From Mobula hypostoma (taxonomy: Eukaryota): a stretch of 64,000 nucleotides of DNA. The notes below the pieces were generated by a model. That model saw nothing but the letters and a program-made list of their open reading frames with translations. It ran no database searches and was not told where the DNA came from. Positions 14,761 through 59,260 of the stretch are shown one piece after another (positions within the stretch are counted from its first letter, which is position 1; the number at the start of each line of letters is the position of its first letter). The position numbers were made by a program, and so were the translations under genes. The stretch lies in contig NC_086097.1 of NCBI RefSeq assembly GCF_963921235.1, positions 160,830,001-160,894,000 of the forward strand, read 5' to 3'.

Positions 14761-14845
14761 AATAATTATTTCATTGGTAACTGTGGAAGATTTTTTTGGG
14801 GCTCCTTGACAGTGTGCTGCACACCTTGAGCGTGCAATGCAACAC

Positions 14846-18799: not shown

Positions 18800-19540
18800 C
18801 TCGGGAGGGATCGAAACAGACTGCGAATTTTCCGGAGGCTCGGGGGAGAAAAGCAGCCTTAATGTCTAAGCTGAATCCAAGGTAACGGGACCAAGGCGGA
18901 GTTAGCAACGTTAAACGAGAGCACACTGAGGGTCCGGATTGGTGCCAATCGGAAAAAAAAATTGCCATCAGCGCCATCTACCTGGGCACACAGTGGCACA
19001 AACCCAGGCTGAGAGAAAGGGGAGCAATTCTAAAGTGGAGTTCTGGACTGGAGGAGCAGCTCAGATGGGAAAATGTCCGAGACGAGTTCTACCAGCTCTG
19101 GGTCTACTGCGGGTTCAGGCAGTCGTGTTTTACAGCTGGCGAGCAGAGGAGAATGGACAGCCCTGGAACAAGCTTTGAAAAGCATTGACAAGGGAGACCA
19201 GGACATCTCTCACACGGACGAAGTGAGCGACTTTTCTTCCCTCCCCACTTTTCACTCGTTCTAGGCATTGTTGCGGGTGCTTCGCTTACAGGCAACCAAT
19301 AATTCCCCAGTGGTATTCCAGTTCAAAGTCATATTTGTGTTTCGGCGGGAGGGTGAATTTTAACAAAAAGAGCAAATCGTATTTCAGCCGCTAGAATTGG
19401 AAGGTGCATGCTCCCAAGAACAACTGACTGACAAATACCATAGATACAGGTCGTACAATGACTTCATTAGAAGCGCAGCCGGCCTGTTAAAGGAAACTAA
19501 TTTGTTCTTAATGCAAGGTTGCAGTCACCAAGGTAACAAG
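18800..19540 (+). promoter_or_regulatory. Putative promoter/first-exon regulatory region of trpn1
   Basis: Visibly CpG/GC-richer than its AT-rich flanks and free of repeats. Inverted CCAAT pair at 18933-18953. X-box-like GAATCCAAGGTAAC (18873-18886) and GTCACCAAGGTAAC (19524-19537). Confidence 0.55.
19073..19222 (+). CDS. trpn1: Coding exon 1 of NOMPC/TRPN1-like ankyrin-repeat TRP channel (MSETSSTSSGSTAGSGSRVLQLASRGEWTALEQALKSIDKGDQDISHTDE)
   Basis: ATG at 19073 with A at -3 and an in-frame TAA upstream at 19031. 50 codons, then donor GAA|GTGAGC at 19223 (phase 0). The segment 'VLQLASRGEWTALEQALK' resembles the NOMPC pre-ankyrin segment as I recall it (VLxLAxKxEWTxIExxLK). Confidence 0.85.
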
Positions 19541-21000
19541 CCCATCAGGAACTTCTCGTTCTCAAAGGTCACTTAAAATGGATTGATTATTTTTTTCTGG
19601 AATTCTTTTGAACAAACTAATAATAAATTCAACAGAAAGGGGACACCTATATATCCTGCCATTTGTTCTGGTGTATTGGTCAAATGTGTGTAAGTAGGAC
19701 AGGTCTTGTAATGGGCATAATTTTGTAAGATGTAAGAACAGGAACCAAAGAGACTAGAAGAGAATGTAACGTTGGGAAAGTGGCCTTTAGTGACTTTGAA
19801 AGAGCTGTGAAAATCCAATTTGATATTGTAAAACAAAGGGACTAAGATTATAGGCTTTGATTAAATGTTTGTTTTTGCATATGGTAATCCTTTCTTGGCT
19901 TTTGAAACTAATTCTAATGTCATAGTAGACCTATTCCCCATGTGAAATGATGTCTTCTTCCTGACATACTCTCCAGTCTACTTTTGAATCAGCCATGAAA
20001 CCAAATCACTTTTTTCTGAAGTGGAATAATTCTATAGTGATTTGGTAATGGAGTTATCCATGTGTTCTGGCACATGGTTGCTTTACAAAATATAATTTGG
20101 TCAAATCTTGGTTGCAAAACTACCTATACCTTCAGTGACTACACGACATGGGTATATCATTAGTTGGAAAGAACATTGGGCTATCTCAAGATTGTTAAAG
20201 GCACAATATGGATGCGTCTTCCATCTGATGAGCTCACCACATCCTCTCCCTCCCCAGCTCTGGAAAGAGAGTGCACTTCACTCAAGAAAAGGATCTCTTA
20301 ATACTGTGATTAATAATGTTATTTTCTGCACAATGGAAATAAAGTCAGCTTTATTCGTTTAGAATATATTAAGTGGTTTTAAAAGCTGTATTTTCTAGGA
20401 GACCTATTATCTATTTTGTTATTTTTAATATAAATTATAAATGTCCATGGCATAAGCACTTTTCATGCTAAAATCTGAAAAGTTTCCCTAATAACAGTTC
20501 CCTCATAGCAGTTGCTTGATGAGCATGCATGAGAGTTAAGTTAATTAAAATTAAAATTTTAACCATATAGTTGTGTGTTTGCCATTGGAGAAGTGAGGCT
20601 ATTTGGACATGCATAGGAACTGATGTATACTGTTTAACTTTTTTTTCCTGTAACTTATTTCTGGTTCCACCTTCACATTAATTTATCCCATTCCTCTATC
20701 CTTATTTTGTCAGTAACTAATTGTGAGATTTTCCATTGACTTAGCTTTAACAAAGAGTCTCAATTTAATTCTTAACTATTTCTTACAAAAGTGACATAGG
20801 CCTTTGCATAACCTCACTGCTAAAATTATGCTCCCTTGGCCTCGACATAACCGTGTCAGAAATTTTTTCTCTATTTTAATCCATTCAGCTCCTGTATTTA
20901 TTTTAAACACCTCAATACAGATTTCTAGAATATAAAACAAGGATATAGTGAGGTAGTTATAAGGTATTTATCAGAATGTATTTGGGGTACAGTGTTGTGA

Positions 21001-22550
21001 ACCTGATGGTCTGCATCTCAGGGTACTTAAGGAGGTGGCTTTAGAAATCGTGGACGCATTGGTAATCATTTTCCAATGTTCTATAGATTCAGGATCAGTT
21101 CCTGTGGATTGGAGGGTGGCTAATGTTGTTCCTCTCTTCAAGGAGGGAGGAAGAGAGAAAACAGGGAATTATAGACCGGTTAGCCTGACGTTGGTGGTGG
21201 GAAAGATGTTGGAGTCAATTATAAAAGATGAAATTACGACACATCTGGATAGTAGTAACAGGATTGGTCCGAGTCAGCATGGATTTATGAAGGGGAAATC
21301 GTGCTCGACTAATCTTCTGGAACTTTTTGAGGATGTAACTATGAAAATGGACAAGGGAGAGCCAGTGGATGTAGTGTACCTGGACTTTCAGAAAGCCTTT
21401 GATAAGTCCCACATAGGAGATTAGTGGGCAAAATTAGGGCACATGGTATTGGGGGCAGAGTATTGACATGGATTGAAAATTGGCTGGTTGACAGAAAACA
21501 AAGAGTAGCAATTAACGGGTTCCTTTTGGAATGGCAGGCGGTGACCAGTGGGGTACCGCAGAGATCAGTGCTGGGACCGCAGCTGTTTACAATATATATT
21601 AATGATTTAGATGAGGGAATTAAAAGTAACATTAACAAATTTGCCGATGACACAAAGCTGGGTGGCAGTGTGAAATGTGAGGAGGATGTTATGAGAATGC
21701 AGGGTGACTTGGACAGGCTGGCTGAGTGGGCAGATGCATGGCAGATGCAGTTTAATGTGGATAAATGTGAGGTTATCCACTTTGGTGGTAAGAACGGGAA
21801 GGCAGATTATTATCTAAATGGAGTCAAGTTAGGAAAAGGGGAAGCACAACGAGATCTAGGTGTTCTTGTGCATTAGTCACTGAAAGCAAGCATGCAGGTA
21901 CAGCAGGCAGTGAAGAAAGCTAATGGCATGCTGGCCTTCATAACAAGGGGAATTGAGTATAAGAGCAAAGAGGTCCTTCTGCAGCTGTACAGGGCCCTGA
22001 TGATACCACACCTGGAGTACTGTGTGCAGTTTTGGTCTCCAAATTTGAGGAAGGACATTCTTGCTATTGAGGGAGTGCAGCGTAGGTTCACAAGGTTAAT
22101 TCCCGGGATGGCGTGACTGTCATATGTCGAAAGATTGGAGAGACTGGGCTTGTATACTCTGGAATTTAGAAGGCTGAGAGAGGATCTTATTGAAACATAT
22201 AAGATTATTAAGCATGTTCGTGCTAATGGGTGAGTCCAGAACCAGGGGCCACAGTTTAAGAATAAGGGGTAGGCCATTTAGAACGGAGTTGAGGAAAAAC
22301 TTTTTCACCCAGAGAGTGGTGGATATATGGAATGCTCTGCCCCAGAAGGCTGTGGAGGCCAAGTCTCTGGATGTTTTCAAGAAAGAGATGGATAGAGCAC
22401 TTAAAGATAGCGGAATCAAAGGTTATGGGGATAAGGCAGGTACTGGATATTGATTGTGGATGATCAGCCATGATCACAGTGAATGGCGGTGCTGGCTCGA
22501 AGGGCCGAATGGCCTACTCCTGCACCTATTGTCTATTGTCTATTGTCTAT
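21001..22550 (+). mobile_element. Young 5'-truncated CR1 LINE nested in an older CR1 fragment (intron 1)
   Basis: Well-preserved RT 'GNYRPVSLT', 'QHGFMKGKSC.TNLLE', 'DVVYLDFQKAFDK', 'SGVPQ.SVLGP', 'KFADDTKL', with few lesions. 3' tail (TATTGTC)n at ~22527-22550. Older CR1 sequence at ~20920-21000 resumes at 22551-23060. Confidence 0.92.
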
Positions 22551-23404
22551 TATATGTACAGAAGGTTGTGCTGGCATTGGAGAAGGTCCAGAAGAGGTGT
22601 GCAAGAATGATACCAGGGAAGAAAAGTGTTCCCATATGAATAGCATTTGATGGCACTCGGCCTGTATTCACTACAGTTTAGGAGAATGAGGAGGGATCTC
22701 ATTGAAGCCTACCGAATATTGAAAGGGAAAATGGAATGGATGTGGAGAGGATGTTTCCCAATAGCGTGAGAGTCTAGGACTAAAGAACACAACCTCAGAA
22801 TAGAATGATATCCATTTAGAGAACAGAGATGAGGAGAAATTTCTTTAGCCAGTTGTGAAACTCTGGAATTCATTGCCACAGACAACGGTAGAGGCCAAGT
22901 CATTGAGTATATTAGAAGCAGGGGTTGATTGGTGAAGGGCATTAAAGGTTACATGAGAAGGCAGGAGAATGGGTTTGAGACAGAAATTAAATCAGCTATG
23001 ATGGACTGGTGGAGCAAACTCGATCAGCTGAATGGCTGAACACTGTTCCTATGTCTTATGTTCCTTATTGCCTTTACCCAAGTGCTCATTCAATCCTCGT
23101 GTGTAAGTAGGAACAATGAGTGCCAGCAGAAATATCATGGAGGAACACAAAGCTCTCTGAACCTACTTTCAGCATCGGTTCCATGACAACCAGAGTTGGG
23201 AGTGCTGATTGCTTGAGCTTTCCTAATCCTGCAACACTGATGATAGTTGTGGAATTCTTAGTAGGATTCTAGCTGATGGACTATCTACCTCTGGAAAGAA
23301 CAGTGATTGAAATTGTGACTTGAACTTGATGACACTAACTTTCATGAAATTACATATCAAATAAACTGGCTTTTATAGATATTTTATTGTATTTTGATTT
23401 GTAG

Positions 23405-23506
23405 GAATCTGGTCTAACCCCACTTTTGATTGCTGTTCGGGAAAATAAATTGGCAATTGTGGAAAAACTACTTGAGTTAGGAGCCAATCAGATTGATCGG
23501 TCAAAG
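23405..23506 (+). CDS. trpn1: Coding exon 2 of TRPN1-like gene, one ankyrin repeat (ESGLTPLLIAVRENKLAIVEKLLELGANQIDRSK)
   Basis: T-rich acceptor ...ttttgatttgtag|GAA and donor AAG|GTCAGT. 102 nt, phase 0-0, canonical ankyrin GxTPL...V..LL..GA. Not in the ORF track because it is short and lacks an ATG. Confidence 0.9.
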
Positions 23507-23732
23507 GTCAGTTTCATAATACTTACATGAACCAATCTACTATAGTGAGTGTGTATATATGAAAAATATAGTATTAAAATTACAAACTGGTTTAATCTAT
23601 AGCTGATATCAACAAGGATAATTGAGTGTAATATGCCTGCTAATTAATGTGATATTGGACTATGTTATCACTGGAAAAGGTATTCTAGCCTCTCACAGAA
23701 GTAAAAAAAACATACTCTCAAATCATAGAAAT

Positions 23733-25461
23733 AGTTGTGTATTTAATATTTCAGTTATCTTTGAGTAATATTGTAAATATATTGTTTGATTAAGCATTCT
23801 TGTTTATTTAAGTAATTCATTATAGGTTATATGTAAAAGTATGTGAATGGTATAGATCATCATACCACCAGGAGATAAGTGTGCATCTCACTAAAAGTAA
23901 AAATGAAACTAATGTACAGAAGCCATCCTGGCTTTGTACAGAATTTATAGAAGTGGACACTCCTCTGGACATATTCTCCCTAATGCAAATCAAAGGTCTC
24001 CCTATTTTGGCAGAGATGATTCAAAGGGTAAACAGAAAAGGCCCCACACTGTCTCAGATCTACACGACAACCAAAATGGCTGGAATGCGTAACAGAAACC
24101 CCAGTTCCCTCATTTTTACCAGTATTGGGATGAACTTGCTCCTTGACCAAGATTCCCTTGTGTGGGGATTGAGAGTTGTTTTACCATCCAAGCTATGTGT
24201 TGGAGGAGCTACATGCTGATCATCTAGGATGGACAAAATAAAAGTGTTGGTTCCAAGTTTTGTCTGGTGGCCTGGGACAGATCAAGAGATCGAGCAGCTT
24301 GCCAATATGCCCAGAAGATGCCAAGAGCAGTGCCTCTTCATCCCTGAGAATGGCCTGCATTGCCCTGGCGAAGGATTCATGTGGATTTTGCTGGACCGTT
24401 CACGGCACAAATTTCTTGGTAGTAGTGGACACAACTACAAAGTGGCCAGGAGTGTTCCCAATAGCTTTCACTACAGCCATGCACACTGTTGATGCATTGA
24501 GAAGCCTCTTCTCAGGGACTAGTGTTCCAGAACAGTTAGTCAATGATAATGGACCCCAGTTTTTTGTTTAGCAGTTTCAATCATTCCTGAAAATGAATGG
24601 AATAAATCATATTACATCTACACATCGAGCTACAAATGGCTTAGTGAGATGGTTTACCATAGTCTAAAGAGCACACTGAGATCAATGTCAGCAGAACACA
24701 AAATACTGACACTGAATCAGAAGCTCACTGCTGTCCTCCTTGCACGCCACAATGTAGCACACTGCACAACCAACAACTCATCAGCTATGCTGTTCCTGGG
24801 TCATCCCTTGTGTTTTCACTTGTATCTCCTTAAACCCAGTCTCAGGAGTATGCAGGACAAACAGCAGAGACAAATTGATGGCTCCTCAAAAAAGGAGGTT
24901 TGATGTTGCACTCCTGGACTACAGAGGTGATCAAAAGCGGGTACTTGGAAAGATTAAGGTCAGAAATAGACCACTGTCCTACACAGTGGATATTGCGTCT
25001 GATATTGTCTGGAGATGACACATGGCTGTCAGTTGGGGACAGCAGAGTCAATTGTTAGAGAAGGAAGGTGATCAGGGCCATCAGAAAGAAGCACTTCCTA
25101 CAGTCCCAGAGTCAACTCCTACAATCAACATGGAGGAGGCCCCTTAACCTACGATTGTTTTTCAGAGATTGAAATTCTGTCCATAAGTTTATAGTTCAGC
25201 AGGAAGAAGTGGTGCCTATTTTATATTTCAGTAATATTTGAGTAATATTGTAAATATATTGTTTGATTAAGCATTCTTTTTTATTTAAATAATTCATTAC
25301 AAGTTATATGTAAAAGTACGTGAATAGCATACATAATCATGCCACCACTTCATACGTGTGCGTCCGCTATGAGTGAAAATGAAGCTAACATGCACAAGAT
25401 AGCCTGGCTTCATGTTTTTGCTTTCATTTAGTTTGATGTTTTTGAGTTACAAAACATAACA
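23733..25461 (+). mobile_element. Internally deleted Gypsy-type LTR element (integrase only)
   Basis: Direct repeats ~23733-23935 and ~25210-25461, ending CATAACA. 5-bp TSD GAAAT (23728-32, 25462-66). Purine tract AGGAAGAAG at 25201. Integrase motifs 'H.DHLG..KIK....FVWWPG.D', 'W.RIHVDFAGP', 'FLVVVD..TKWP', 'DNGPQF'. Confidence 0.85.
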
Positions 25462-27719
25462 GAAATGTGTTCAGATGATGATTTAACCAGGAGACAGATC
25501 AACATATGATATCGATACATGCATTATTTCTGTGTATTTCCATTAGTTCATGGGAAGGGGGTAATTAGCCCAGAAGAATTTGTTGGCTAATAATTGATCC
25601 CTGCATCTCATAACAAGGTTAAGTAAGGGCATGGAAATTTCAACTTTTGACCAAAGTAGCAATAATATCATGTTACAATTGCCGCACCAGGTTAACACAA
25701 TGGATGTGTTAGCACAGGCTGCTAGTCTCTCCTCTCCTTTTTATATTTTGTGTTTTTAAGTGTAATTGTTCCTTCAATTGTCTAGTATGATTCTGATGTA
25801 TGTGAGCACAAAGCAAATTCAGATCAAGATAATTTATCAGATTCTTCAAACCTCATTTTCAATTTAACAAGATCACAACTGATCAGATTCTAAACCCAGT
25901 TTCACATTCCAACCTACCTCCAGTAACTTTTCGAACCCTCACTTGTGCCAACTTTTGCATAATATTTTCAAATATTCTTCTGCTGCTATTCTTTGAGGAA
26001 GAGAGTTTGGGAATTGGAATTGGAACTGGAATGTTTTTATTATTGTCTCATGTACCAAGGTACAGTGTAAAACTTGTCTGTGTACTGTTCGTATAAATCA
26101 ATTCATTACATAATACTAGAACATGTACGTTTCTGAAATTCCTCAAGCCCTTTTTTATTGAGGCAAGCTGAAATCATAGTACATTTGTAAGAGGTACTCT
26201 TCAGGTAATGGAAGAAGGGAACTTTTGGATCCCAGAGATGGAAAGGTTTCTCAATATAGTTATGAACCATCCAAATATGCTTGGAATACACTTATTCCAG
26301 GGAGCTTATTTTTTTTATATGATCATCTCAGTGGACAGTGAGGATTTCTGTAATCAACTCGTATTTTGGGACGTTGTAGCCCTGCCTAAGCAGATGGTCA
26401 TAGTTGCAGGAAGAGCATGGCTAATTTTACATTCAATAACATGGACAGGAAGCTGTACAGTAAAGGCTGGTTGTGGTCCATGTACCTAGACTTAACTACA
26501 GTTTAATTTCCTCGAATGGCCAGAGAGGACCTAAAAAGCTTGATTAAATGGAAAATATACAGGGTGGGACTAATGGGCATCAACTTAGATAACCTCCTCT
26601 TTGCTCCTGTGCTTTTGCCCTTTCCGTCTGAGCCCCTGGGTTTTTGATTACCCACAAAATCGATGGAATTCACAAGGCCCTCTCAGGCTCAACGTGTCTG
26701 GATTCATTCCAAAACTCTTTGGAAGTGCAAAGTGGTCAGATAGCTGTTGAGGTAAAATCAATTAAAACAGCACTTCAGTGTGCAACGGAACACAGAATAA
26801 CTTCAGGTGAAACTTCACTGCAAGTCATTAGGACTGGCTTGTTACAGAATGATAATTTACTATTGCAGTAGCAAATTTAATTCAGGCTCTGATAATAAGC
26901 AAAGAAAATAAAGACAGAGCATCCAAGGAAGGAGAGGAGGTGTTGGAGAGTCGTGGAATTAACATCTTACCCCTGTATTGTCCGTTAAGATTTGTGTTTT
27001 GTTTCATTTGAAGGCTAAACCATTGGAACTGTACTGCTCCATTGTTACAGCATTCCTAATCCTCCAACCCCAAAAGGTAACTCCATTGTGACCATGTAAT
27101 GTTAAGATTGTATCAAAAGGCTAACATAGTCTCAGAAAGACTGTACTTATGGTGGAACGTGTTGAAGTCCTCCTAGCTCAGGTAATGGTGGGGCAGAGCA
27201 AAATTTATTGTAGGATCAAAGCAGAAGTTCTAATCACAAGTGATCATGGCTAGAGTAAAATAAAGAAAACACCTCAGCCGAGGATATTGCCTTCAGGACC
27301 AGTGACTTACTCTGTCCAGAAACCTTACCTGGGAGGATAGTCAGTCTGAGGTGGTCATGAGTGCATGAAGATTAGCTGACAGCATAGAGGACAGAGAAAA
27401 CATCAAAGAGTTCAGGAGCCACACAGCACAGAAACAGCCCTTCCTCCTAACAGTGTCCATGCTGAGTATCGAATCCTGTTTACCTGCATTTGATCCCTAG
27501 CCTTCAATGCCTTAGCAATTTAGCTGCATAGCTAGATGTTCCTTAAAACTTGTGAGAGTATCTCCATCCACAGCCTCTTTGTGCCGCACATTCAGGATTC
27601 CAAGCATTCTCTGTGTGTAAAAATTCTTTCTCGGATCCCATCTAACACCCCTTCCCTATCACCTTGTACTTGTTCATGTACGCCAGAGAACATCAGTGTG
27701 TCAGTCGCCATATTCAAGA

Positions 27720-28495
27720 GGACGAGAAGATAAAAGCAAGGATATAATGCTGAGGGTTTAAAGGGTGTTAGTCAGACCACATGTGGAGTATTGCAAGTCA
27801 TTTTAGGGCTCCATATCAAGGAAAGGATTTGCTGGCATTGGAAAGAATCCAGAGGAGGTGTATGAGAATGATCCCAGGAATGAAAGGATTGACATTTGAG
27901 GACTCCTGTACTCACAGAAGTTTAGAAGAATGAAGGGTAGTGGTGGTGGTGGGAGGGTGTGAGTGCAAGGATGTCCCTTTAGTACAGAGATGAGAAGGAA
28001 TGTCTTTAGCCAGAGAGTGTTGAATCTGTGGAATTCATTACCACAGATAGTAGTGGGCACTGAGTCCTGACGGAATGGTAGAGTAAGCTCAGTGGGCTGA
28101 ATGACCCAGCTCTGCTCCTGTGTCCAATGGTCTTATGCTCTAGGATAAGACTGGATATTCTAGGAGATGGTGACTAGTCACAATTGACATTAAATGGTGG
28201 AATCCATAGAATTATTAATGTACCGATGTACTAAGAGGTGCAAATCCACAGCTCCCTGAAAATGTCGCACAAGGAGAGAGAGTTGTAGATAGGCTGGTAA
28301 AGGAGGCACATGGCATGCTTGCCTTCATCAGTCAGGGCAGTGAGTATAAAAGTAAGGAAGTCAAGCTGTAGGTGAGCAAAATCTTGGTTATTGTGTGCAG
28401 TTCTGGTTACCACATTATAGGATGGATGTAGAGCCTTTTGAGAGAGTGCAGAGGAAGTTCACTGGAATGCAGCCTGGTTTGGAGAGTATTAACAC
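27720..28495 (+). mobile_element. Old CR1 3' fragments
   Basis: Degenerate copies of the CR1 C-terminal/3' UTR sequence also seen at 14100-14760 and 55700-56450. Confidence 0.6.
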
Positions 28496-29007: not shown

Positions 29008-29175
29008 CCGTCACCTACACAGTAGGGATATCCCCTTCACCTACACACTCGGTAACCCCCTTCACCTACACCCTCGGGAACCCCCTTCACCTACACACTC
29101 GGGAACCCCCTTCACCTACACACTCGGGGAACACCCCCGTCACTGACACACGAGAATAATCTACACACTTGGGGC
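29008..29175. repeat. 25-bp minisatellite (ccccttcacctacacactcgggaac, about 4 good copies plus degenerate ones)
   Basis: 'ctacac' recurs at 29041, 29066, 29091 and 29116. Confidence 0.85.
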
Positions 29176-29550
29176 AATTCACAGGAGGACAATTTACTGT
29201 TCTCCCTGTGATCACATAAGTTTTGTCTGGTGCTCCTGTTCGCCCTAACACACCAAGCACATGCAGGTTAGAATGTAAATCAGCAACTGCAAGCTAGAAA
29301 CTGGAGAGATTTAATGGGAATGTGGGAAGTACAGGTTACAGGGAAAATTATTGATAGAGTGGGATTGCTCTATGAATCAGAACAGATGATGGCCTTTTTT
29401 GATGTAAGGGAATATAGAAAATAAATTTTTATTTTGAGGCGATATGCAATATGTTAGTAACAAAAAAGTCATCTATGCAAATCTAAAAAGTAAGAATCAA
29501 ATCGAGTTAAAGAAACTCATACCGGGAGCACAAATATGTAAATAATTAAA

Positions 29551-30340
29551 GCAACACACATCAAAGTTGCTGGTGAACGCAGCAGGCCAGGCAGCATCTC
29601 TAGGAAGAGGTACAGTCGACATTTCAGGCCGAGACCCTTTGTCCGGACTAACTGAAGGAAAAGCTAGTAAGAGATTTGAAAGTGGGAGGGGGAGGGGGAG
29701 ATCCAAAATGATAGGAGAAGACAGGAGGGGGAGGGATGGAGCCAAGAGCTGGACAGGTGATTGGCAAAGGGGATACGAGAGGATCATGGGACAGGACGTC
29801 CGGGAAGAAAGACGGGGGGGCGGGGGACCCAGAGGATGGGCAAGGGGAATAGTCAGCGGGACAGAGGGAGAAAAAGGAGAGTGAGAGAAAGAAAGTGTGT
29901 ACAAAAATAAATAACAGATGGGGTACGAGGGGAAGGTGGGGCATTAGCGGAAGTTAGAGAAGTCGATGTTCATGCCATCAGGTTGGAGGCTACCCAGACG
30001 GAATATAAGGTGTTGTTCCTCCAACCTGAGTGTGGCTTCATCTTTACAGTAGAGGAGGCCGTGGATAGACATGTCAGTATGGGAATGGGCTGTGGAATTA
30101 AAATGTGTGGCCACTGGGAGATCCTGCTTTCTCTGACGGAGAGAGCGTAGATGTTCAGCAAAGCGGTCTCCCAGTCTGCGTCGGGTCTTGCCAATATATA
30201 GAAGGCCACATCGGGAGCACCGAACTCAGTATATCACCCCAGCTGACTCACAGGTGAAGTGTCGCCTCACCTGGAAGGACTGTCTGGGGCCCTGAATGGT
30301 GGTAAGGGAGGAAGTGTAAGGGCATGTGTAGCACTTGTTC
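29551..30340 (-). mobile_element. 5'-truncated Penelope-like element (GIY-YIG end + pLTR)
   Basis: Highly similar to the reverse complement of 62470-63250. 15-bp TSD ATGTAAATAATTAAA (29536-29550, 30348-30362). Confidence 0.9.
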
Positions 30341-35048: not shown

Positions 35049-36905
35049 CTGTGGCATGCAAAAGCCTGGGCACCCCTGGTCAAAATTTCTGTTACTGTGA
35101 ATAGCTAAACGAGTAAACGATGAACTGATTTCCAAAAGGCATAAAGTTAAAGGTGACACATTTCTTTAATATTTTTAGCAAGAAAACTTTTTTATTTCCA
35201 TCTTTTACAGTTTCAAAATAACAAAAAAGGAAAAGGGCCCAACACAAAAGTTTGGGCATCCTGCATGACAATACTTAGTAACACCCCCTTTGGCAAGTAT
35301 CACAGCTTGTAAATAGTTTTTGTAGTCAGCTAAGTCTTTCAATTCTTGTTTGGGGGATTTTCACCCATTCTTCCTTGCAAAAGGCTCCTAGTTCTGTGAG
35401 ATTCTTGGACCATCTTGCATGCACTGCTCTTTTGAGGTCTATCCACAGATTCTCGATGATGTTTAGATCAGGGGACTGAGAGGGCCATGGCAAAACCTTC
35501 AGCTTGCACCTCTTGAGGTAGTCCATTGTGGATTTTGAGGTGTGTTTAGGTTCATTATCCTGTTGTAGAAGCCATCCTCTTTTCATCTTCAGCTTTTTTA
35601 CAGATGGTGTGATGTTTACTTCCAGAATTTGCTAGTATTTAATTGAATTCATTCTTCCCTCTACCAGTAAATATTCCCCGTGCCACTGGTTGCAACACAA
35701 GCCCAAAGCATGATTGATCCACCCCTGTGTTTAACAATTGGAGAGGGTTCCTTTTCATGAAATTCTGCACCCTTTTTTCACCTTTGCTCATTGCGGCCAA
35801 AAGGTTCTATTTTAATTTCATCAGTCCACAGGACTTGTTTCCAAAATGCATCAGGTGTGTTTAGATGTTCCTTTGAACCTTTTGAATAGAACTTTTTGGC
35901 CACAATGAGTGATGCACTATCAATTACTCCAAAAGACTGGAAGTAGAGTAAATACTGAAAGGCTTTTATTAACAGTAAATGGTCCAACGTCCATGCTGAG
36001 TATCTGCCCCGGACAGAGGGAGGAGCAGTGGCACAATCGCCCTTATTCAGGGGTCTGTGGGAGGAGCCACAGGAGCAGTCAGCAGTGGGGCGTGTCCAGG
36101 CATGTCCAGACAGGTAACCCAATTACAACATATATATATATGGTTTACCACAATGAACAAAGGTATGCTTGGAGAAAAAAGGGTGCAGAATTTCATGAAA
36201 AGCACCCCTCTCCAACTGTTAAGCACGGGGGCGGATCGATCATGTTTTGGGCTTGTGTTGCAGCCAGTGGCACGGGAAACATTTACTGGTAGAGGGAAGA
36301 ATGAATTCAATTAAATACTAGCAAATTCTGGAAGTAAACATCACACTGTCTGTAAAAAAGCTGAAGATGAAAAGAGGATGGCTTCTACAACAGCATAATG
36401 ATCCTAAACACACTTCAAAATCCAGAATGGACTATCTCAAGAGGCACAAGCTGAAGGTTTTGCCATGGCCCTCACAGTCCCCTGACCTAAGCATCATCAA
36501 GAATCTGTGGATAGACCTCAAAAGAGCAGTGCATGCAAGACAGTCCAAGAATCTCACAGAACTAGAAGCCTTTTGCAAGGAAGAATGGGCGGAAATCCCC
36601 CAAACAAGAATTGAAAGACTCTTAGCTGGCTACAGAAAGTGTTTACAAGCTGTGATACTTGCCAAAGGGGGTGTTACTAAGTACTGCCATGAAGGGTGCC
36701 CAAACTTTTGCTTCGGTCCCTTTTCCTTTTTTGTTATTTTGAAACTGTAAAAGATGGAAATAAAAACGTTTTCCTGCCTAAAATATTAAAGAAATGTGTC
36801 ATCTTTAACTTTATGCCTTTTGGAAATCAGTTTGTCTTTTACTCGCTTAGCTGTTCACAATAACAGAAATTTTGACTGGGGTGCCCAAACTTTTGTAGAC
36901 TTTTG
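35049..36905. mobile_element. Fold-back Tc1 (DD34E) derivative: two inverted 3' halves
   Basis: Left arm (-) encodes 'LWTDE...QQDNEPKH...WPSQSPDLNIIENLW' with 34 residues between D and E. The right arm (+, ~35885-36905) encodes the same region. Termini CTGTGGCATGCAAAAG...GGCACCCC / GGGGTGCCCAAACTTTTG, flanked by TA. Confidence 0.9.
35910..36152 (-). mobile_element. Solo LTR (243 bp) inserted in the Tc1
   Basis: TG...CA ends, 5-bp TSD ATGAG/ATGAA (35905-09, 36153-57), TATA-like and AATAAA signals on the minus strand. Removing it restores Tc1 'ggccacaatgagcaaagg', matching the other arm. Confidence 0.85.
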
Positions 36906-45173: not shown

Positions 45174-48100
45174 CGGGGCCGGTTTTAGTGGGGCCGGGGC
45201 CCCTGGGCTGGAGGCCCTGATGGGCCCCTGCTGACACCATAAAATGCTGCTGTACCAAGCAAACAAAGGCATGAACAAGACAAAGGTCATACTGGTCTAA
45301 CTATCAAAGCTGTGGACCAAGACACTGGTTTAGTACAATATGTAGGCTATAAGCTTACAGGCCTTAAGAGGGAGGACAGAAAGTAATGAAGATTCTTAGT
45401 TTGAAGGACAGCATCTAAAGCACTCAAAAATTGACCTAGGCTTAGTTGGCTTAGTAAAGTTATGAGGGAGATGAAGTATGATGTACCCAATCTTAAATCT
45501 TTATTTAGCTATTGCTGCACATACCATAGGTCTTGTTTCTCAAACAATGCCAAAGCATTTTTATCTGGTATTTTTCTCAACCATGCGTTCTGAGAAAGTG
45601 AAATGGAAATGAGAGACAAAAAGGCCAAGAGAGATGGCACTATGGCAAACTAGGAAATTTAACAATACTCCAACAATCTTTTTGAAAAATGAGATCTAGC
45701 ACGTACTATCCCATTGCTGTGCTGTGTGGCTTGCAGAGTAAAGACCACTTATCGCTTACTAGATTTGTAAACAGTTAACTATTAGCCTATTGCCACAAAA
45801 ACAGGAACAGCACTGACACACAAGCCTAGATATTTACAAAGTCAGATGCTTGCTTTTCAAAATTAAAGCCCAGTTCTTCTGGATTTCTTCGCAGCAAAGT
45901 CCTTGATCAGATGACTAAAATCCAGTTTCTGAACAAGATCATTTTCAAGTGACATCGGAGTAAGATGATTCAGCCTGTCCTGTCCCATCGTGGATCTGAG
46001 CCTATTCTTCACTAGCTTGAGCTTGGAGAAAGATCGCTCACCACTTGCATTTGTGACAGGGAGAGTCAGGTAAAGCCTCAAAGCAATGCTTACATTTGGG
46101 AAGATGACCTGCAAGTTTTTTTCTCTGAGGAAGCATAAAAGCTCTGTTGCGGATGAAATATCTTTGCCACTTACAAATTCCCTGCAATGGACAATCTCCT
46201 CCAGGTCAGCTGAATATCTGCTTTGGAGATCAGATGCTCTCTTGCGCAGATCTTGTACAGAGAAAGAAGGGATATTGTTTAGGATGCCAAATGTATTGTT
46301 AAGTTCATTATATGATGCAAATCTACAATCAATTTCTGCAAATAATTTATCCATCACGACCAAATAAACAGTAGCTGAGAATTTTTCTCTGGCTGACAAG
46401 CCAACATCAGATGTTGTGGATTCACCCAGAAAGGCTTTACATTTTCTTTGTCATTGGGTGTCTTCTTTGTACACTTGTGAGACTGATGGAGACATAGTTT
46501 TAGCTTGGGTCTCAAAAGTATCAAATTGATCACGCAAGCTTGCTATGTATCCCCGTAGTGATCTCACCAAATCCACAGCATTACACAGGTCTAGATTTAC
46601 AGCTTGCAATGCAACGCTTGAACTTTCGAAGCACTGAAGAATGCAATGCCATAATTTGCTCAGAGGTCAGTACTGTTTTCCTGTGGTGTTCACTATTTTC
46701 ATGCTCTCCTACACCTTCAGCGGCATGTTTCCAGTTGCTAAAGCCAGTTTCGAAGATGAACTGACGGTTACCATCACTGAAGATGCGGCATGAAATAAAA
46801 TCACACAGCCGGTGGAAGGGGAATATAAGAGCCACTGCCTTGATATGTTCTTACAATTTATGAGCTTGCGCTTGAAGTGAAATTGGGAGAAAAAACGTCT
46901 TTGCTGTTTGTATACTCGTTCCGAAGCTTTGATATCCACATCCTTATTCTGGCAGGACTCCGGCCCTTTCTTAGCCCAGTATGCTCGGACTGAATCATCT
47001 AACGTTTCCTTTCCCCAGCGAGCAGGATCAGTGCTGTAAGGATCCTCAGTAGTGGTAACGTTAACATTAATGGTGGCCTGACTTGGTTGTTCGGAGGCCC
47101 CTGTGGTCGGGAATCCCAAAGTCATGCTCTCTGCCTCTTCAACGTTAGCTGCTGACTGTGGCAAGGATGGTGGTCCTGTGCTAATGCTAGTGCTAGCGCT
47201 AGCTGTTGAACAAGTCTCCATTTGTCCACCGGTCTCAGACTGTGACAAGAGCGATGGTACTGCTGCATCATCAAGAACAGGTTTAAAAAATTCTCTCAAT
47301 TTCAATGTCTTTTTTAATGCTTCTTTCTCACAGTCCTCTTTTTCTTCAAAGTTGCTGGTGAATACAGCAGGTCAGGCAACATCTCTAGGAAGAGGTGCAG
47401 TCGACGTTTCAGGCCTAGACCGTTCGTCAGGACTAACTGAAGGAAGAGCTAGTAAGAGATTTGAAAGTGGGTGGGGGAGGGGGAGATCCAAAATGAAAGG
47501 AGAAGACAGGAGAGGGAGGGATGGAGCCAAGAGCTGGACAGGTGATTGGCAAAAGGGATATGAGAGGATCATGGGACTGGAGGCCCAGGGAGATGGAAAG
47601 GGGGGGGAACCAGAGGATGGGTATAGTCAGAGGGATAGAGGGACAGAGGGAGAAAAAGGAGAGAGAGAGAGAAAGAATGTGTGTATATAAATAAATAACG
47701 GATGGGGTACGAGGGGGAGGTGGGGCATTAGCAGAAGTTAGAGAAGTCAATGTTCATGCCATCAGGTTGGAGGCTACCCAAACGGAATATAAGGTGTTGT
47801 TCCTCCAACCTGAGTGTGGCTTCATCTTGACAATAGAGGAAGCCGTGGATAGACATGTCAGAATGGGAATGGCATATGGAATTAAAATGTGTGGCCACTG
47901 GGAGATTCTGCTTTCTCTGGCGCACAGAGCGTAGGTGTTCAGCAAAATGATGTCCCAGTCTGCGTCGGGTTTCGCCAATATATAGAAGGCCACATCGGGA
48001 GCACCGGACGCAGTATGTCACACCACCGACTCACAGGTGAAGTGTCGCCTCACCTGGAAGGACTGTCTGGGGCCCTGAATGGTGGTAAGGGAGGAAGTGT

Positions 48101-49270
48101 AAGGGCATGTGTAGCCCTTGTTCCGCTTACAAAGATAAGTGCCAGGAGGAAGATCAGTGGGGAGGGATGGCGGGGGACGAATGGACAAGGGAGTCGCGTA
48201 GGGAGCGATCCTTGCGGAAAGCGGGGGGGGGAGGGAAAGATCTGCTTAGTGGTGGGATCTCGTTAGAGATGGCAGAAGTTACGGAGAATAATATGTTGGA
48301 TCTGGAGGCTGGTGGGGTGGTAGGTGAGGACCAGGGGAACCCTATTCCTAGTGGGGTGGCGGGAGGATGGAGTGAGAGCAGATATGCGTGAAATGGGGGA
48401 GATGCGTTTGAGAGCAGAGTTGATAGTGGAGGAAGAGAAGCCCCTTTCTTTAAAAAAGGAGGAAATCTCCCTCGTCCTGGAATGAAAAGCCTCATGCTGA
48501 GAGCAGATGTGGCAGAGACGGAGGAATTGCGAGAAGGGGATGGTATTTTTGCAAGAGACAGGGTGAGAAGAGGAATAGTCCAGATAGCTGTGAGAGTCAG
48601 TAGGCTTATAGTAGACATCAGTAGATAAGCTGTCTCCAGAGATAGAGACAGAAAGATCTAGAAAGGGGAGGGAGGTGCTAATGCCCCACCTCCCCCTCGT
48701 ACCCCATCCGTTATTTATTTATATACACGCATTCTTTCTCTCTCTCTCTCCTTTTTCTCCCTCTGTCCCTCTGACTATACCCCTTGGCCAGCCTCTGGGT
48801 TTTTTTCCCCCCTCCCCCCTTTCCTTCTCCCTGGGCCTCCTGTCCCATGATCCTCTCATATCCCTTTTGCCAATCACCTGTCCAGCTCTTGGCTCCATCC
48901 CTCCCCCTCCTGTCTTCTCCTGTCATTTTGGATCTCCCCCTCCCCCTCCCACTTTCAAATCTCTTACTAGCTCTTCCTTCAGTTAGTCCTGATGAAGGGT
49001 CTCGGCCCGAAACATCGAATGTACCTCTTCCTAGAGATGCCGCCTGACCTGCTGCGTTCACCAGCAACTTTGATGTGTGTTGCTTGAATATCCAGCATCT
49101 GCAGAATTCCTCGTGTTTACCTCTTTTTCTTGTTTCTTTTTTTCTTTTCTGTGCTCCACTCTCATATTTTTCTTTTGTCCGCCAGGATGATAGCTACCTA
49201 TTTTAGGCTCCTCTGTAGCTCTGGCCCCTGGGCTGCAGCCCAGCCTAGCCTTGCCTAAAGTCCAGCCCTG
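45174..49270 (-). mobile_element. hAT DNA transposon (ZMYM1/TTF-finger, Tip100-like transposase), internally deleted
   Basis: TIRs CGGGGCCGGTTTTAG / CTAAAGTCCAGCCCTG, 8-bp TSD TTGATGTA/GTGATGTA (45166-73, 49271-78). hATC dimerisation motif 'FPNVSIALRLYLTLPVTNASGERSFSKLKLVKNRLRSTMGQDRLNHL', TTF-like 'RQWLLYS...GFSNWKHA...HENSEHH', and N-terminal 'KRKYESGAQKRK' at ~49140-49180. Confidence 0.92.
47347..49119 (-). mobile_element. Young Penelope-like element with inverted pLTRs, inside the hAT transposase
   Basis: 12-bp TSD CCTCTTTTTCTT (47335-46, 49120-31). Minus-strand GIY-YIG 'YCVRCSRCGLLYIGETRRRLG.HFAEH...LQPDGMNIDFSNF'. About 390-bp inverted arms 47347-47730 / 48677-49071. Confidence 0.93.
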
Positions 49271-52200
49271 GTGATGTAAAGAGCTGGAAAATTGATTGTT
49301 GAAAGAGATACAGGGCTGGAGGATGGGGAATCTGATAGGAGAGCATGGAAGGCTACGGAAGAAGGAAAAGGGGAAGGAGGACCAGAAGGAGGTGAGGGGC
49401 AGGTAAGGAGAGAGGGAAAGGGGGATGGGAAATGGTGAGAGGGGGCATCCATTACCAGAAGTTTGAGAAATTGATGTTCCTACCATCAGGTTGGAGGCTA
49501 CCTAGACGGAATAAAAGGTGTTGTTCCTCCAACCTGAGTGTGGCTTCATCATGACAGTAGAGGAGGCCATGGACTGACATGTCAGAATGTGACTGGGAAG
49601 TGGAATTAAAATAGCTGGCCACTGGGACATCCTGCTTTTTCTGGCGAATGGAGCATAAGTGCTCTGTGAAGTGGTCTGCCAATCTACATTGGGTCTTCCC
49701 GATATACAAGAGGCCACACTGGGAGCACTGGATACAGTAGATGACTGCAGCAGACTCACAGATGAAGTATCACCTCATTTGGAAGGACTGACTGGGGCCC
49801 TGAATGGTAGTGAGGGAGGATGTGTAGGGGCAGCTGTAGCACTTGTGCCACTTGCAAGTGTCAGAAGGGAGATCAGTGAGGAGAGACGAATGGACAAGGG
49901 AGTCGCATAGGGACCAATCCCTGTGGAAAGCAGAAAGTAGGGGGAGAGCAAAAGATGTGCTTAGTGGAGGGATCCTGTTGGAGTTAGCGGAAGTTCTGGA
50001 GAATTATGTGCTGGATGCAGAATGCTGGTGGGGTGGTAGGTGAGAACAAGAAGAACCCTATCCCTGGTGGGGTGGCGGGAGGATGGCGTGAGGCAGACGT
50101 GTACGAAATGGAAAAGGTGCGGTTGAGAACGGTGTTGATGGTGGAGGAAGGGAAGCCCCTTTCTTTGAAGAAGGAGGACATCTTCTTTGTTCTGGAATGA
50201 AAAGCCTCATCCTGAGAGCAGATGCGGCTCAGGTGGAGGAATTGAGAGAAGGGGATGGGTTTTTTACAAGTAACAGGGTGGGAAGAGGTATAGTCCAGGT
50301 AGTTGTGAAAGTCGGTGTGTTTTATAATAGACATCAGTGGATAAGCTGCCTCCAGAGACAGAGACAGAGAGATTGAAAAGGGGAGGGAGGTGTCGGATTT
50401 GGACCAGGTAAGTCTGAGGGCAGCGTGGAAGTTGGAGGCAAAGTTGATGAAGTTGACGAGCTTCGCATTGGTGCAGGAAGCAGCACTAATGCAGTCATCG
50501 ATGTAGGGAAAATTTGGGAGTGACACCAGTGTAGGCTTGGAATATAGACTGTTCCACGTAGCCAGCAAAAAGGCAGGCATAGCTGGGACCCATGCAAGTG
50601 CCCATGGCTACCTCTTTTGTTTGAAGGAAGTGGGAGGAGCCAAAGGAGAAATTATTAAGAGTGAGGATGTTCCACTAGGTGGAGGAGAGTGATGGTGGAG
50701 GGGAACTGGTTGGGTCTGGTGTCCAGAAAGAAACGGAGAGCTTTGAGGCCTTCCTGGTAGGGGATGGAGGTATATAAGGATTGGACATCCATAGTAAAAA
50801 CAAGATGCTCAGGGCCAGGGAACTTGAAATCATTGAAAAGATCAAGAGTGTGTGAAGCATGATGGATGTAGGTAGGAAGGGACTGAACCCAGACGGGATA
50901 AAACTGAGTCGATATGTACAGATGGAAGTTCAGTGGGGCAGGAATGAGCAGAAGCAATGGGTCTAGCTGGACGGGCAGGTTTGTGGATCTTGAGTAAGAG
51001 GTAGAAGTGGAAGGTGATTGGTGCGGGATCTATGAAGTAGGTGCCGGTGGATGGGAGATCCCCAGTTAGGTTGATGGCAGAGGACGGGAGATAAGGTCAG
51101 TGATGGCATGGGAGACAATGGCCTGGTATTACTTAGTGGAATCCTGTTCGAGGGGGAAGTAAGAGGAGGTGTCTGACAGTTGTCGCCAGACCTCAGCAAG
51201 GTAGCGGTCAGTCGCCAGACTACTACAGCACCTCCCTTATCTACGGGTTTGATAGTGAGTTTAGGATTTTAGTGCAGAGGGAGTGGAGAGCAGCACGTTC
51301 GGAAGGGGTGAGGTTAGTATTGGAGAGAGGAGTGGTAAAATCAAGATGGTTGATGTCTCATAGGCAGTTAACAATGAAAAGATCCAGAGCAGGCAGAAGA
51401 CGAAAGTGGGATGTCCAGAGGGTTGAAGACCGGAGAGAGGGACATCAGTCCGGGCTGGAGAGTCCTTGTCAAAGAAATAGGCCTGAAGACGGAGGCAGCG
51501 GAAGAAGACTTCAGAGTCATGGTGGGCGAAGAACATACTGAGGTGTGGGCACAGGGAGACAAAGGTGAGCCCCCCCCCCTTTCTTCCATGGCCTTCTGTC
51601 CTCTCCTTTCAGATTCCACCTTCTCCAGCCCTGTGTCTCTTTCACCAATCAATTTCTCAGCTCTTTACTTCACCCTCCCCCTCACAGTTTTACCAATCAT
51701 CTACCACCCTGTATTTCTTGCTATCTCCCCCCACCTTGTTACTCAGATTTCTTATCTTTTTTCTCAGTTCTGATGAAGGGCCTCAGCCTGAAACATCCAC
51801 TGTTTACTCTGAGTTCTGTGATGGTTGATTCTGTATGTTACCTTTCCCAGCTAAGTAAATGGTTAAATGGTTAAGCAATAAGTAAGCATGTAATTTTATC
51901 TTACAAGAGAGTTTCAGGAACTCAGCTTTTCCACTTCCAACATTTTTGAGCTTTTGGAGAGTTGACCTTGGCTTTCATTTTTCATGATTTATCTTCTTCA
52001 CTTTGCAGTCTTCCAGTTACCGTGAACCTTGCTTATTCCCCTTGGTTCCTCTATTTCTGTCCATTCCATGAAAGTATTTAGGACATTTCCCTTGGGAAAT
52101 AACCAGGAATCTCTTGAGAACACTTCCGCCCCCCCCGCCCCCAGCAAGCCACAGCTTTGGCAGAAATACAAAAGTGAAAAGCGTGGGGTTTCCACCATCC

Positions 52201-55200: not shown

Positions 55201-55699
55201 CAGCTGTCTTATAACTGAGCTCAAATCCCATTAGATTTAAAAAGATAATAATTAGGAGACACAAGGGATTGTACCCTGCTCTGCTTTTCCTAACTCCTAC
55301 CCAATATCCACAACCCTCAGTTTCCCATTAGCCCCATTGTTTCTTCCTGATCCTGGCCCACCGAGCTGGAGTCCATATGCCTCAACTCCATTTTGTTCTC
55401 CCTTGGTTCATGGTTCGCACAAAATATTGCAGATGCTCAAATCTGGAGCGAAAAATAAACTGCTGAAGGGTCTTCACAGGTTAAGCAGCATCTGTGAAGG
55501 TAAAGGAATGTTATATTTTTCAAATCAGGGCTAAATGTATAGAGGGAAGGAAGCCACGTGGTGAGAGGTAGGAGTGAGATGGAGCTGGTAAGTGAGAGGT
55601 GGGACTGGGTCAGGGGGTTTGGAATGGTGGGCAAGATGGAGCCATAGAAGCATATGGGAGAGCGTATTGGAAAGGAAGGTGAAGGATGAAACAGGGAGA

Positions 55700-58079: not shown

Positions 58080-58350
58080 AGATGCTTTCCGCATGGAGTT
58101 TGCATGTTCTCCCTGTGAACATATTTGTTTATTCCAGGTGATCTGTTCACTTCCCACTTCCCAAAGACATGCAGGTTAACTAGCCACTATAAATTGTTCC
58201 TAGTGTGCCAGTGAATGGTAGAACAAGGGGGGAGCTGATAAAAGATGAGAATAGATGTGGGGAGAATTAAAGAAAAGTTTAAAGTAGGATTCAAGTAAAT
58301 AGGTTAGCATGGACTAGGTGGGCTGAAGGTCTCTTTCTATGCTGTAACTC
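58080..58350 (+). mobile_element. Old SINE fragment (V-SINE/CORE-like)
   Basis: Contains 'gcatggagtttgcatgttctccctgtga...ttcccaaagacatgcaggtta', a motif I recognise from fish SINE central domains. Confidence 0.55.
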
Positions 58351-59161
58351 CTTGTGAATCTATGACACTATCCTTTGTAATGGTGCAGTTGGATATTCTG
58401 TGCCAGTTTGAGATACTCTTTTTATTTCCTCTATTGTATTATAGTCATTCTTTTGCTAATTGGTTTAATGATGTCACATGTACCGAGACGTACAGAATAA
58501 TTTTGTTTTGCATGCCATCCATGCTGATCATTGAAAAATACTAGTATGACGAGGTAGTGTAAAGGGAAAGGTAAGAACAGGACAGAATGAGGTGTTACAA
58601 TGACAGTGGAAGTATAGTGCAGGCAGGTAATAAGGTGTAATGGCCAAGACGAGGCAGACTATGAAGTCAAGTTCATCTTTATTGTACAGGAGTTCCATTC
58701 AAGACCTCTTTATATCTCTTTTTCTTTATTTCTATAAGACATAGGAGCAGAATTAGGCATTTTGGCCTATCATGTCTTCCCCACCATTCGATCATGACTG
58801 ATTTATTTTGCCTCTCAATCCCATTCTCCTGCCTTCTCCCTGTAATCTTTAATGTCCTTACTGGTAAAGAGCCTACGTACCTCTGCTTTAAGTGACTTGG
58901 TCTTCTCAGCTGTCTGATTCAATTCACCACTCTTTGGCTGAAGAAATTCCTCTTCATCTCTGTGCTGTATCTTTCATCTTTTTTTTCATTTAATACATGA
59001 TATTCAATTTATTCACTTAAGTCAACACTTCTTCTCAGTTTTTAAGCTAGTAATTTCTTGGTTCTTCAGTCTGATTGTTTGAGGAAGATGCACTGTGGCT
59101 TGTCCTGTTCCTTCACGTCCCAGATACCGTGTGTAACATTGCTCTCTTACCAACTTTTTAG

Positions 59162-59260
59162 GGTGGAAGGACCGCACTGCACGTCGCTGCAGCACATTCA
59201 AAGGAAGAGATTGTTCGGCTGCTTCTGGCAAAGAGATGGGACCCTAATCTCACTGGAGGG
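59162..59260 (+). CDS. trpn1: Coding exon 3 of TRPN1-like gene, one ankyrin repeat (GGRTALHVAAAHSKEEIVRLLLAKRWDPNLTGG)
   Basis: Acceptor ctctcttaccaactttttag|GGT and donor GGG|GTATGG. 99 nt, phase 0-0. The pattern LHxAAxxSxE.VxLLL.KR..DP..TGG follows NOMPC directly after the exon-2 repeat. Confidence 0.88.

What the first reader, a model, noticed from the sequence alone, without database searches (positions are those of the whole stretch)
19073..59260. 5' end of a NOMPC/TRPN1 mechanotransduction channel gene hidden among TEs
Seen: three GT-AG, phase-0 exons splice into a 117-aa open frame, two of them absent from the ORF track. Knowledge: the peptide is collinear with the NOMPC N-terminus (pre-ankyrin 'EWT' segment, then GxTPL and LHxAAxxSxE...DP..TGG repeats). 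TRPN1 occurs in invertebrates, fish and amphibians and is lost in amniotes. Inference: a chondrichthyan ortholog, relevant to hair-cell, lateral-line or electrosensory biology. Automated pipelines may label it a generic ankyrin-repeat protein.
Basis: partly seen in the sequence, partly recalled or inferred. Interest (0 to 1): 0.75.

Follow-up and report, generated by a model that had tools for sequence, protein, structure and literature searches.

The report
First exons of ray TRPN1 gene
This is the start of a ray's ordinary single-copy gene for TRPN1 (NOMPC), a force-sensing ion channel; public annotation already names this gene correctly, so it is a real but known gene.

Summary
Three GT-AG, phase-0 exons give an open 117-aa frame. 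It matches RefSeq XP_062896725.1 (Mobula hypostoma TRPN1) at 117/117 and other ray and shark TRPN1 at 98-114/117. The exons map in order to fly NOMPC 74-105, 126-152 and 163-192. The gene is already named in RefSeq, and catshark Trpn is in print (PMC11979771). (2) The RefSeq model carries a fourth, 63-nt exon (27014-27076), seen in 1 of 201 proteins fetched, probably minor or mispredicted. (3) The 'pre-ankyrin' segment is predicted to be a capping repeat. (4) An electrosensory role is unsupported. Two guessed-RNA contigs end exactly at the exon-1 donor. Likely mechanism, inferred from fly: a microtubule-tethered tetrameric channel in cilia. The scan's earlier notes hold no TRPN1 finding. Ordinary; low interest.

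The parts
19073..19222 (+). trpn1 coding exon 1 (aa 1-50): Ser-rich flexible tail, then a helix-turn-helix predicted to be the N-cap of the ankyrin stack
   Evidence: ATG and GT donor; 50/50 to P0016; matches fly NOMPC 74-105 (weak alone, E 0.3); AF2 helices 18-25 and 28-36 on the catshark relative P0188; two guessed-RNA contigs end at 19222
19223..23404 (+). intron 1 (4,182 nt), holds a decayed LINE reverse transcriptase at about 20963-21873
   Evidence: Pfam RVT_1
23405..23506 (+). coding exon 2 (aa 51-84) = ankyrin repeat 1
   Evidence: AG/GT; Pfam Ank E 1e-5; fly NOMPC 126-152; 34/34 to P0016
23507..59161 (+). intron 2 (35,655 nt) with decayed integrase, Tc1-type DDE, hAT and GIY-YIG transposon pieces
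27014..27076 (+). 63-nt phase-0 cassette exon present in RefSeq XP_062896725.1; adds 21 aa between repeats 1 and 2; probably minor or mispredicted
   Evidence: 22/22 tblastn match to P0016; AG..GT, donor 8/9 consensus; found in 1 of 201 proteins fetched
59162..59260 (+). coding exon 3 (aa 85-117) = ankyrin repeat 2
   Evidence: AG/GT; Pfam Ank E 5e-8; fly NOMPC 163-192; 33/33 to P0016
59261..59278 (+). alternative exon-3 donor, +18 nt (6 aa), used in Hypanus RefSeq isoforms; use in this species not shown
   Evidence: P0013 matches 38/38 through 59278; 8 of the 11 Hypanus isoforms fetched carry it; GT at 59279, donor 5/9
18800..19072 (+). CpG-enriched upstream region, probable promoter and 5' UTR; out-of-frame upstream ATG at 19065
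   Evidence: CpG o/e 0.87 in 18800-18999 vs 0.27 for the window; guessed-RNA contig of run X9 covers 18875-19140 with 0 differences

Best explanation
The three exons are the first 117 codons of the ray's single trpn1 (NOMPC) gene; the other 1,520 or so codons lie beyond the window. SHOWN: exon structure and identity to a named full-length RefSeq TRPN1 model. PREDICTED: exon 1 gives a flexible tail plus a capping helix pair; exons 2 and 3 each give one ankyrin repeat (AR1, AR2). INFERRED from fly NOMPC and frog/zebrafish TRPN1, not tested in any ray: four subunits form a cation channel whose about 29-repeat ankyrin springs are tied at this N-terminal end to microtubules. Load on the spring is passed through linker helices to the TRP box and opens the pore. 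In vertebrates it probably works in microtubule-based cilia (hair-cell kinocilia, ciliated epithelia) as an accessory force sensor, not as the main stereociliary transducer. Odds: identity about 0.98; three-exon form is the main 5' isoform about 0.85; tethered gating conserved about 0.75; ciliary or kinociliary site about 0.6.
For: 117/117 to P0016, 114/117 to P0006, 112/117 to P0002 and P0015, 98/117 to P0019, all named TRPN1. Ray P0002 aligns to fly NOMPC 5VKQ in one stretch, 11-1616 vs 75-1694, 1626 bits; next best is ankyrin-1 at 419 and TRPA1 at about 162. Residues 1-117 of P0006 as query: 736 hits among 2007 candidates; the top 30 rows are TRPN-type and the first unrelated ankyrin protein is row 31 at 34% identity. 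Trees of 41 and 20 homologs follow the species tree with rays inside chondrichthyans. The TRP-N motif quoted in PMC4494053 is present in 19 of 19 proteins checked, at 1487 in P0016. Database isoforms that lack exactly residues 52-85 or 85-117 show that other species share these boundaries. Contigs of 918 nt (run X10, 0 differences) and 529 nt (run X18, another organism, 4 differences) stop at 19222 and go on elsewhere, and the depth of the exon-2 bin (2.91, 7.46) equals 103 letters at those contigs' depths (2.90, 7.47). Mechanism: passages of PMC13041742 and PMC9108448; ciliary location as reviewed in PMC13734937.
Against: No genome is held, so the downstream exons of this assembly were not seen; the pore is inferred from the identical RefSeq model. 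The 19222-23405 joint was not among the 15 joint rows shown (163 hidden), so splicing is inferred from contig ends and depth; the runs are only guessed to be RNA, tissue unknown. The junction into 59162 was not tested. The RefSeq model of the matching species includes the extra exon. Neither tree held a non-TRPN outgroup, and one search is the quick tree without bootstrap. Pfam Ion_trans on P0002 scored 21.3 bits, under its cut-off of 25. No functional study of chondrichthyan TRPN1 turned up. A 2025 paper title places the gating spring in the channel hinge, not the repeats (seen only in a reference list).
Confidence: 0.9

Rival explanations
1. Same gene, but the main transcript has four 5' exons, including 27014-27076, so this species carries a 21-aa insert between repeats 1 and 2.
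For: The only RefSeq protein fetched for the matching species (P0016) has it. It is in frame, stop-free, AG..GT, with an 8/9 donor; only 2 loose-rule in-frame pseudo-exons were found in the 35.7-kb intron and one uses this same donor.
Against: Found in 1 of 201 proteins fetched; next best local score 32 vs 106. The sister species' model P0006 (98.7% identical overall) lacks it. Its acceptor tract scored 0.71, lower than exon 3 (0.82) though above exon 2 (0.65).
Confidence: 0.15
2. Ray TRPN1 is the main hair-cell transducer or an electroreceptor (ampulla) channel.
For: Zebrafish knockdown abolished hair-cell responses, as reviewed in PMC13734937 (original paper not read).
Against: The same review says TRP channels are not the pore of the hair-cell transducer and places Xenopus TRPN1 in kinocilia. 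Catshark Trpn is absent from the table of TRP genes enriched in ampullae, eye or brain/olfactory tissue (PMC11979771 Table 3); the heat-map in its supplement could not be read, and I could not confirm whether ear or lateral line were sampled.
Confidence: 0.08
3. A split, truncated or dead copy: only the 5' end survives in this assembly.
For: Only 117 of about 1,640 residues are in the window, and no later exon was found in the last 4.7 kb. The thorny skate gene appears as two models, 206 and 1402 aa, on contigs of the same length.
Against: All four window exons are 100% identical to a complete 1662-aa model with an intact TRP motif; intact splice sites; introns here are 4-36 kb, so a next exon beyond 4.7 kb is expected.
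Confidence: 0.03
4. Another ankyrin-repeat family (ankyrin-1/2/3, PP6 regulatory subunits, ASB18, TRPA1).
For: Exons 2 and 3 alone score higher in total against ankyrins and designed repeat proteins because scores add over many repeats; many homologs bear such automatic names.
Against: Exon 1 finds only chondrichthyan TRPN1-type proteins (5 of 107 candidates); whole-protein score 1626 vs 419 bits; the oddly named homologs carry the TRP-N pore motif and group by species inside the TRPN tree.
Confidence: 0.01

Closest known systems
RefSeq XP_062896725.1, TRPN1 of Mobula hypostoma (P0016)
   Same: 117/117 over the three exons and 22/22 over the cassette segment; very probably this gene itself or that of a near-identical relative.
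TRPN1 of other rays, sharks and chimaera (Mobula birostris, Hemitrygon akajei, Hypanus, Heterodontus, Chiloscyllium, Scyliorhinus, Callorhinchus)
   Same: Same start, same exon boundaries; 74-97% identity over residues 1-117 among those aligned; catshark Trpn reported in PMC11979771.
   Different: None has the 21-aa insert; Hypanus isoforms use the +18-nt donor; several database isoforms skip whole repeats.
Drosophila NOMPC (PDB 5VKQ)
   Same: Collinear over the whole ray protein; exons match 74-105, 126-152, 163-192; the L, E and W of the cap motif are invariant in 21 homologs.
   Different: About 47% identity; the fly has a much longer N-tail and 10 more residues between cap and AR1; its residues 1-123 are treated as disordered in PMC13041742, whereas the conserved part is predicted here to fold as a cap.
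Zebrafish and Xenopus TRPN1
   Same: Orthologs, 57% and 62% identical to ray over residues 1-117; the only vertebrate members with functional or localisation data that I saw (via review).
   Different: No functional data for rays were found; zebrafish is a long branch.

Membership tests
TRPN (NOMPC) | Best match is TRPN, not another ankyrin or TRP family | tested here: met
TRPN (NOMPC) | About 28-29 N-terminal ankyrin repeats | tested here: met
   Tested on the relative P0002 (112/117 to the window), collinear with fly NOMPC in one stretch; P0016 is collinear with it. Repeats were not counted one by one; the window holds only cap, AR1 and AR2.
TRPN (NOMPC) | Six-helix TRP pore domain with the conserved S6/TRP-N motif | tested here: met
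   Motif from PMC4494053 found in P0016 at 1487 and in 19 of 19 proteins; tested on the identical RefSeq model, not on this assembly's DNA.
TRPN (NOMPC) | Downstream exons present and intact in this assembly | not testable with these tools
   No genome held; none in the last 4.7 kb of the window.
TRPN (NOMPC) | Orthology: falls in the TRPN1 tree in species order | tested here: met
   FastTree 41 rows; IQ-TREE quick 20 rows, chondrichthyan group support 99-100; no non-TRPN outgroup included.
TRPN (NOMPC) | Single copy per bilaterian genome | not testable with these tools
   No genome held.
TRPN (NOMPC) | Spliced transcript exists | tested here: inconclusive
TRPN (NOMPC) | Force-gated cation current that depends on microtubules; ciliary location | not testable with these tools
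   Needs expression, patch clamp and immunostaining.
Ankyrin-1/2/3, PP6 regulatory ankyrin subunits, ASB18, TRPA1 | Best whole-protein match to that family | tested here: not met
   419 bits (ankyrin-1) and about 162 (TRPA1) vs 1626 (NOMPC) in PDB; PP6 subunits and ASB18 proper were not compared directly, but homologs so named carry the TRP-N motif.

The most novel reading that the evidence does not exclude
Because vertebrate trpn1 encodes its spring largely one repeat per phase-0 exon, rays and other vertebrates may tune channel stiffness by regulated skipping of single repeats, including exons 2 and 3 here, and this devil ray may add a private 21-aa loop near the microtubule-facing end. Clean repeat-sized deletions occur in 44 of 156 homolog models, and some recur across lineages: exon 3 in Hypanus, tortoise, painted turtle and alligator; residues 938-1003 in Hypanus, Heterodontus and a sea turtle (rows are not independent, many are isoforms of one gene). 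This would cut against the view that the repeat number is fixed (PMC4494053 section 20). More likely these are splicing noise in frame-preserving exons or prediction artefacts: they are spread over 24 position-length classes.
Probability: 0.1. Interest if true: 0.6.

Novelty: already known. Interest (0 to 1): 0.15.

Why it matters
Little that is new: the gene is named in RefSeq and a shark ortholog is in print. Its use is as a clean 5' model for cloning a slowly evolving vertebrate NOMPC, whose role in vertebrate hair cells is still unsettled. Two side points are worth passing on. The often repeated statement that TRPN is absent from amniotes is wrong for turtles and crocodylians, whose intact copies mostly hide under unrelated automatic names; they could show what TRPN1 does on land. 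And the conserved exon-1 segment probably folds as a cap, which bears on where the channel grips microtubules.

Tried and rejected
Whole-genome search: no genome held. Sequencing runs: no RNA holder listed on record; four guessed-RNA runs were laid instead (4 of 24 listed). The exon-3 junction lay outside the 13.5 kb laid. Rfam: 0 matches in the window. Tandem repeats: 6 short arrays, none relevant. Exon 1 alone: no Pfam family and only E 0.3 to NOMPC in PDB. Literature: 'TRPN1' + 'cartilaginous fish' gave 0 papers; 'TRPN1 NompC shark' gave 1 unrelated; the isoform search listed 20 of 38 papers, none by title on vertebrate TRPN1 splice forms (listing only); 'TRPN crocodil turtle' gave 4. PMC4494053 does not mention sharks. 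The catshark supplement could not be read; the one tuatara supplement file held had no 'TRPN'; the 2025 hinge paper is not held. The careful tree did not finish; the quick tree was used. Earlier scan notes: none near, one unrelated Painless-type note. The fold search did not list 5VKQ among its top 50, which is uninformative for repeat folds. The insert was not folded. I rejected 'TRPN1 in amniotes is a new discovery' because PMC10776941 says TRPN is missing only in some sauropsids and PMC7116210 reports all 7 TRP subfamilies in tuatara.
Full report
Observation. Seven distant homologs hit only these exons at E<=0.01, far beyond shuffled controls. Introns are 4,182 and 35,655 nt and hold decayed LINE, integrase, Tc1-type, hAT and GIY-YIG pieces: 10 of 24 ORFs scanned had Pfam hits.

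Identity. Each exon separately lands on fly NOMPC (5VKQ) in order: 74-105, 126-152, 163-192. Exon 1 as query found 5 proteins among 107 candidates, all chondrichthyan TRPN1-type. Their clusters hold RefSeq TRPN1 of Hemitrygon, Hypanus, two Mobula species and Heterodontus. The spliced frame is 117/117 identical to XP_062896725.1 of Mobula hypostoma, 114/117 to M. birostris, 112/117 to the stingrays and 98/117 to Heterodontus. The window is therefore most likely from that devil ray or a very close relative (inference). The stingray protein aligns to NOMPC over 11-1616 at 1626 bits, against 419 for ankyrin-1 and about 162 for TRPA1. A search with residues 1-117 of the M. birostris protein gave 736 hits among 2007 candidates; 120 were listed, 110 of them with the Pfam accession PF23317 that the TRPN rows share, and the first unrelated protein is row 31. 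Trees of 41 and 20 homologs follow the species tree; neither had a non-TRPN outgroup, and some species labels were completed from truncated names. The TRP-N motif quoted by PMC4494053 is in 19 of 19 proteins checked.

The RefSeq model of the matching species has a fourth exon, 27014-27076, adding 21 aa between repeats 1 and 2. It has a good donor (8/9) and a middling acceptor, but occurs in 1 of 201 proteins fetched and not in the sister species; I read it as a minor or mispredicted exon (about 0.15 that it is the main form). An alternative exon-3 donor at 59278 adds 6 aa in 8 of 11 Hypanus isoforms and is present in this DNA.

Transcript evidence. No run on record as RNA holds the stretch; four guessed-RNA contig sets were laid on 14500-28000. 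Exon 1 was covered in 3 of 4. A 918-nt contig (X10, 0 differences) and a 529-nt contig (X18, another organism) end exactly at 19222 and continue elsewhere; the exon-2 bin depths equal 103 letters at those contigs' depths. This fits splicing of exon 1 to exon 2, but the joint row itself was not among the 15 shown, the RNA label is a guess, tissue is unknown and exon 3 was not tested. A contig of X9 reaches 18875, in a CpG-rich stretch.

Anatomy. AlphaFold2 of the 133-aa catshark N-terminal fragment P0188 (76% identical to ray, 52-row alignment) gives low confidence for 1-15 and confident helices at 18-25 and 28-36, then two ankyrin repeats. Model residues 14-110 align in register with residues 13-105 of a designed ankyrin protein (5lw1_G, Z 14.4, rmsd 2.1, 92 aligned); that this stretch is the DARPin N-cap is my own knowledge. 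So the 'pre-ankyrin' segment is probably a capping repeat. It is a prediction on a relative; PMC13041742 treats fly residues 1-123 as likely disordered and as the presumed microtubule-binding part.

How it works (inferred). From fly work: a homotetramer whose ankyrin domain links the pore to microtubules, with compression or twist passed to the TRP domain (passages of PMC13041742 and PMC9108448; PMC6400526 and PMC8186909 seen as listing only). Where the spring lies is debated (a 2025 title in a reference list). In vertebrates the review PMC13734937 reports kinociliary and ciliary location in zebrafish and Xenopus and an accessory, not pore-forming, role in hair-cell transduction (passages; originals not read). 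I give 0.75 for conserved tethered gating in the ray and 0.6 for a ciliary site. Nothing functional was found for cartilaginous fishes.

Comparison with print. PMC11979771 (abstract, first parts of sections 7 and 16, passages with Table 3; supplement unreadable) recovered catshark Trpn and does not list it among TRP genes enriched in ampullae, eye or brain/olfactory tissue; its supplementary figures 24 and 26 may bear on expression. PMC4494053 (abstract, sections 5, 20, 21, passages) states one copy in all bilaterians except amniotes and a fixed repeat number. The amniote claim fails here: 17 of 120 rows are turtle or alligator proteins; the 10 aligned are full length with 71-75% identity in the membrane region, and turtles and crocodylians form one clade within tetrapods (support 100). 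This is in print in passing: PMC10776941 (passages) says TRPN is missing in some sauropsids and all snakes studied; PMC7116210 (passages; one supplement file searched) reports all 7 TRP subfamilies in tuatara. No bird, mammal or squamate row was among the 120 listed, which does not prove loss.

Most novel reading. Repeat-sized deletions appear in 44 of 156 homolog models (1300 aa or more, 58% or more identity), in 24 position-length classes, some shared between rays, sharks, turtles and alligator. Regulated tuning of spring length is possible (0.1), but frame-preserving exons make stable noise isoforms and the rows are not independent.

Verdict. Real, correctly identified, already annotated. 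Novelty: already known. Interest 0.15. The scan's earlier notes held no TRPN1 finding.

Noticed in passing
P0029, P0032, P0034, P0088, P0097, P0099, P0137-P0142: Full-length TRPN1 with an intact pore motif in many turtles and in crocodylians, mostly under unrelated names (PP6 regulatory ankyrin subunit, ankyrin-1, protein tyrosine phosphatase IVA3, uncharacterized). Contradicts 'absent from amniotes'; noted only in passing in two genome papers that I read.
   Followed up: partly
P0003 (206 aa) and P0193 (1402 aa), Amblyraja radiata: The thorny skate trpn1 appears split into an 'ankyrin repeat and SOCS box protein 18-like' model that lacks exon 2 and an 'ankyrin-1-like' model, on contigs of the same length.
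   Followed up: partly
homolog models: 44 of 156 database models lack one to three whole ankyrin repeats; skips of exon 2, exon 3, residues 224-257, about 545-583 and 938-1003 recur in more than one species.
   Followed up: partly
window 19524-19537 (+): A match to an RFX X-box-like consensus (recalled, not from a call) 300 nt into intron 1; 54 of 2000 simulated 2-kb sequences had one or more; 3 sites in the window (19524, 44060, 63976). Looked for after the fact; would fit a ciliary gene but is weak.
   Followed up: partly
window 19065-19175 (+): An out-of-frame ATG 8 nt upstream of the start opens a 37-codon frame overlapping exon 1; could dampen translation by leaky scanning.
   Followed up: no
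window 59261-59278 and P0188: The first six intronic codons after exon 3 read 5/6 alike in a catshark read-through model and in the ray, suggesting conserved sequence at this donor.
   Followed up: no
window 26990-27076 (+): A second possible acceptor at 26990 shares the cassette donor and would give an 87-nt in-frame exon.
   Followed up: no
window 61843-62862 (+), 47728-50607, 9638-10439, 29543-30340: Several related repeat copies; a 339-aa open frame with a weak GIY-YIG hit (Penelope-like by my own knowledge) is the best preserved.
   Followed up: no
window 35059-36895 and 45863-47371: A Tc1-type DDE element with an internal repeat (35059-35782 vs 36171-36895) and a hAT transposase remnant inside intron 2.
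   Followed up: no
window 14900-15500: GC- and CpG-rich repeat (o/e 0.93) 3.6 kb upstream, very deeply covered by diverged contigs in all four runs laid; no Pfam or Rfam match; not identified.
   Followed up: no
window 533-1237 (-): Pfam ALKBH8_N hit (E 2e-6) at the end of a broken reverse-transcriptase-like frame; probably a LINE tail, not an ALKBH8 gene (my inference).
   Followed up: no
window 29011-29137: Five copies of a 25-nt tandem repeat in intron 2.
   Followed up: no
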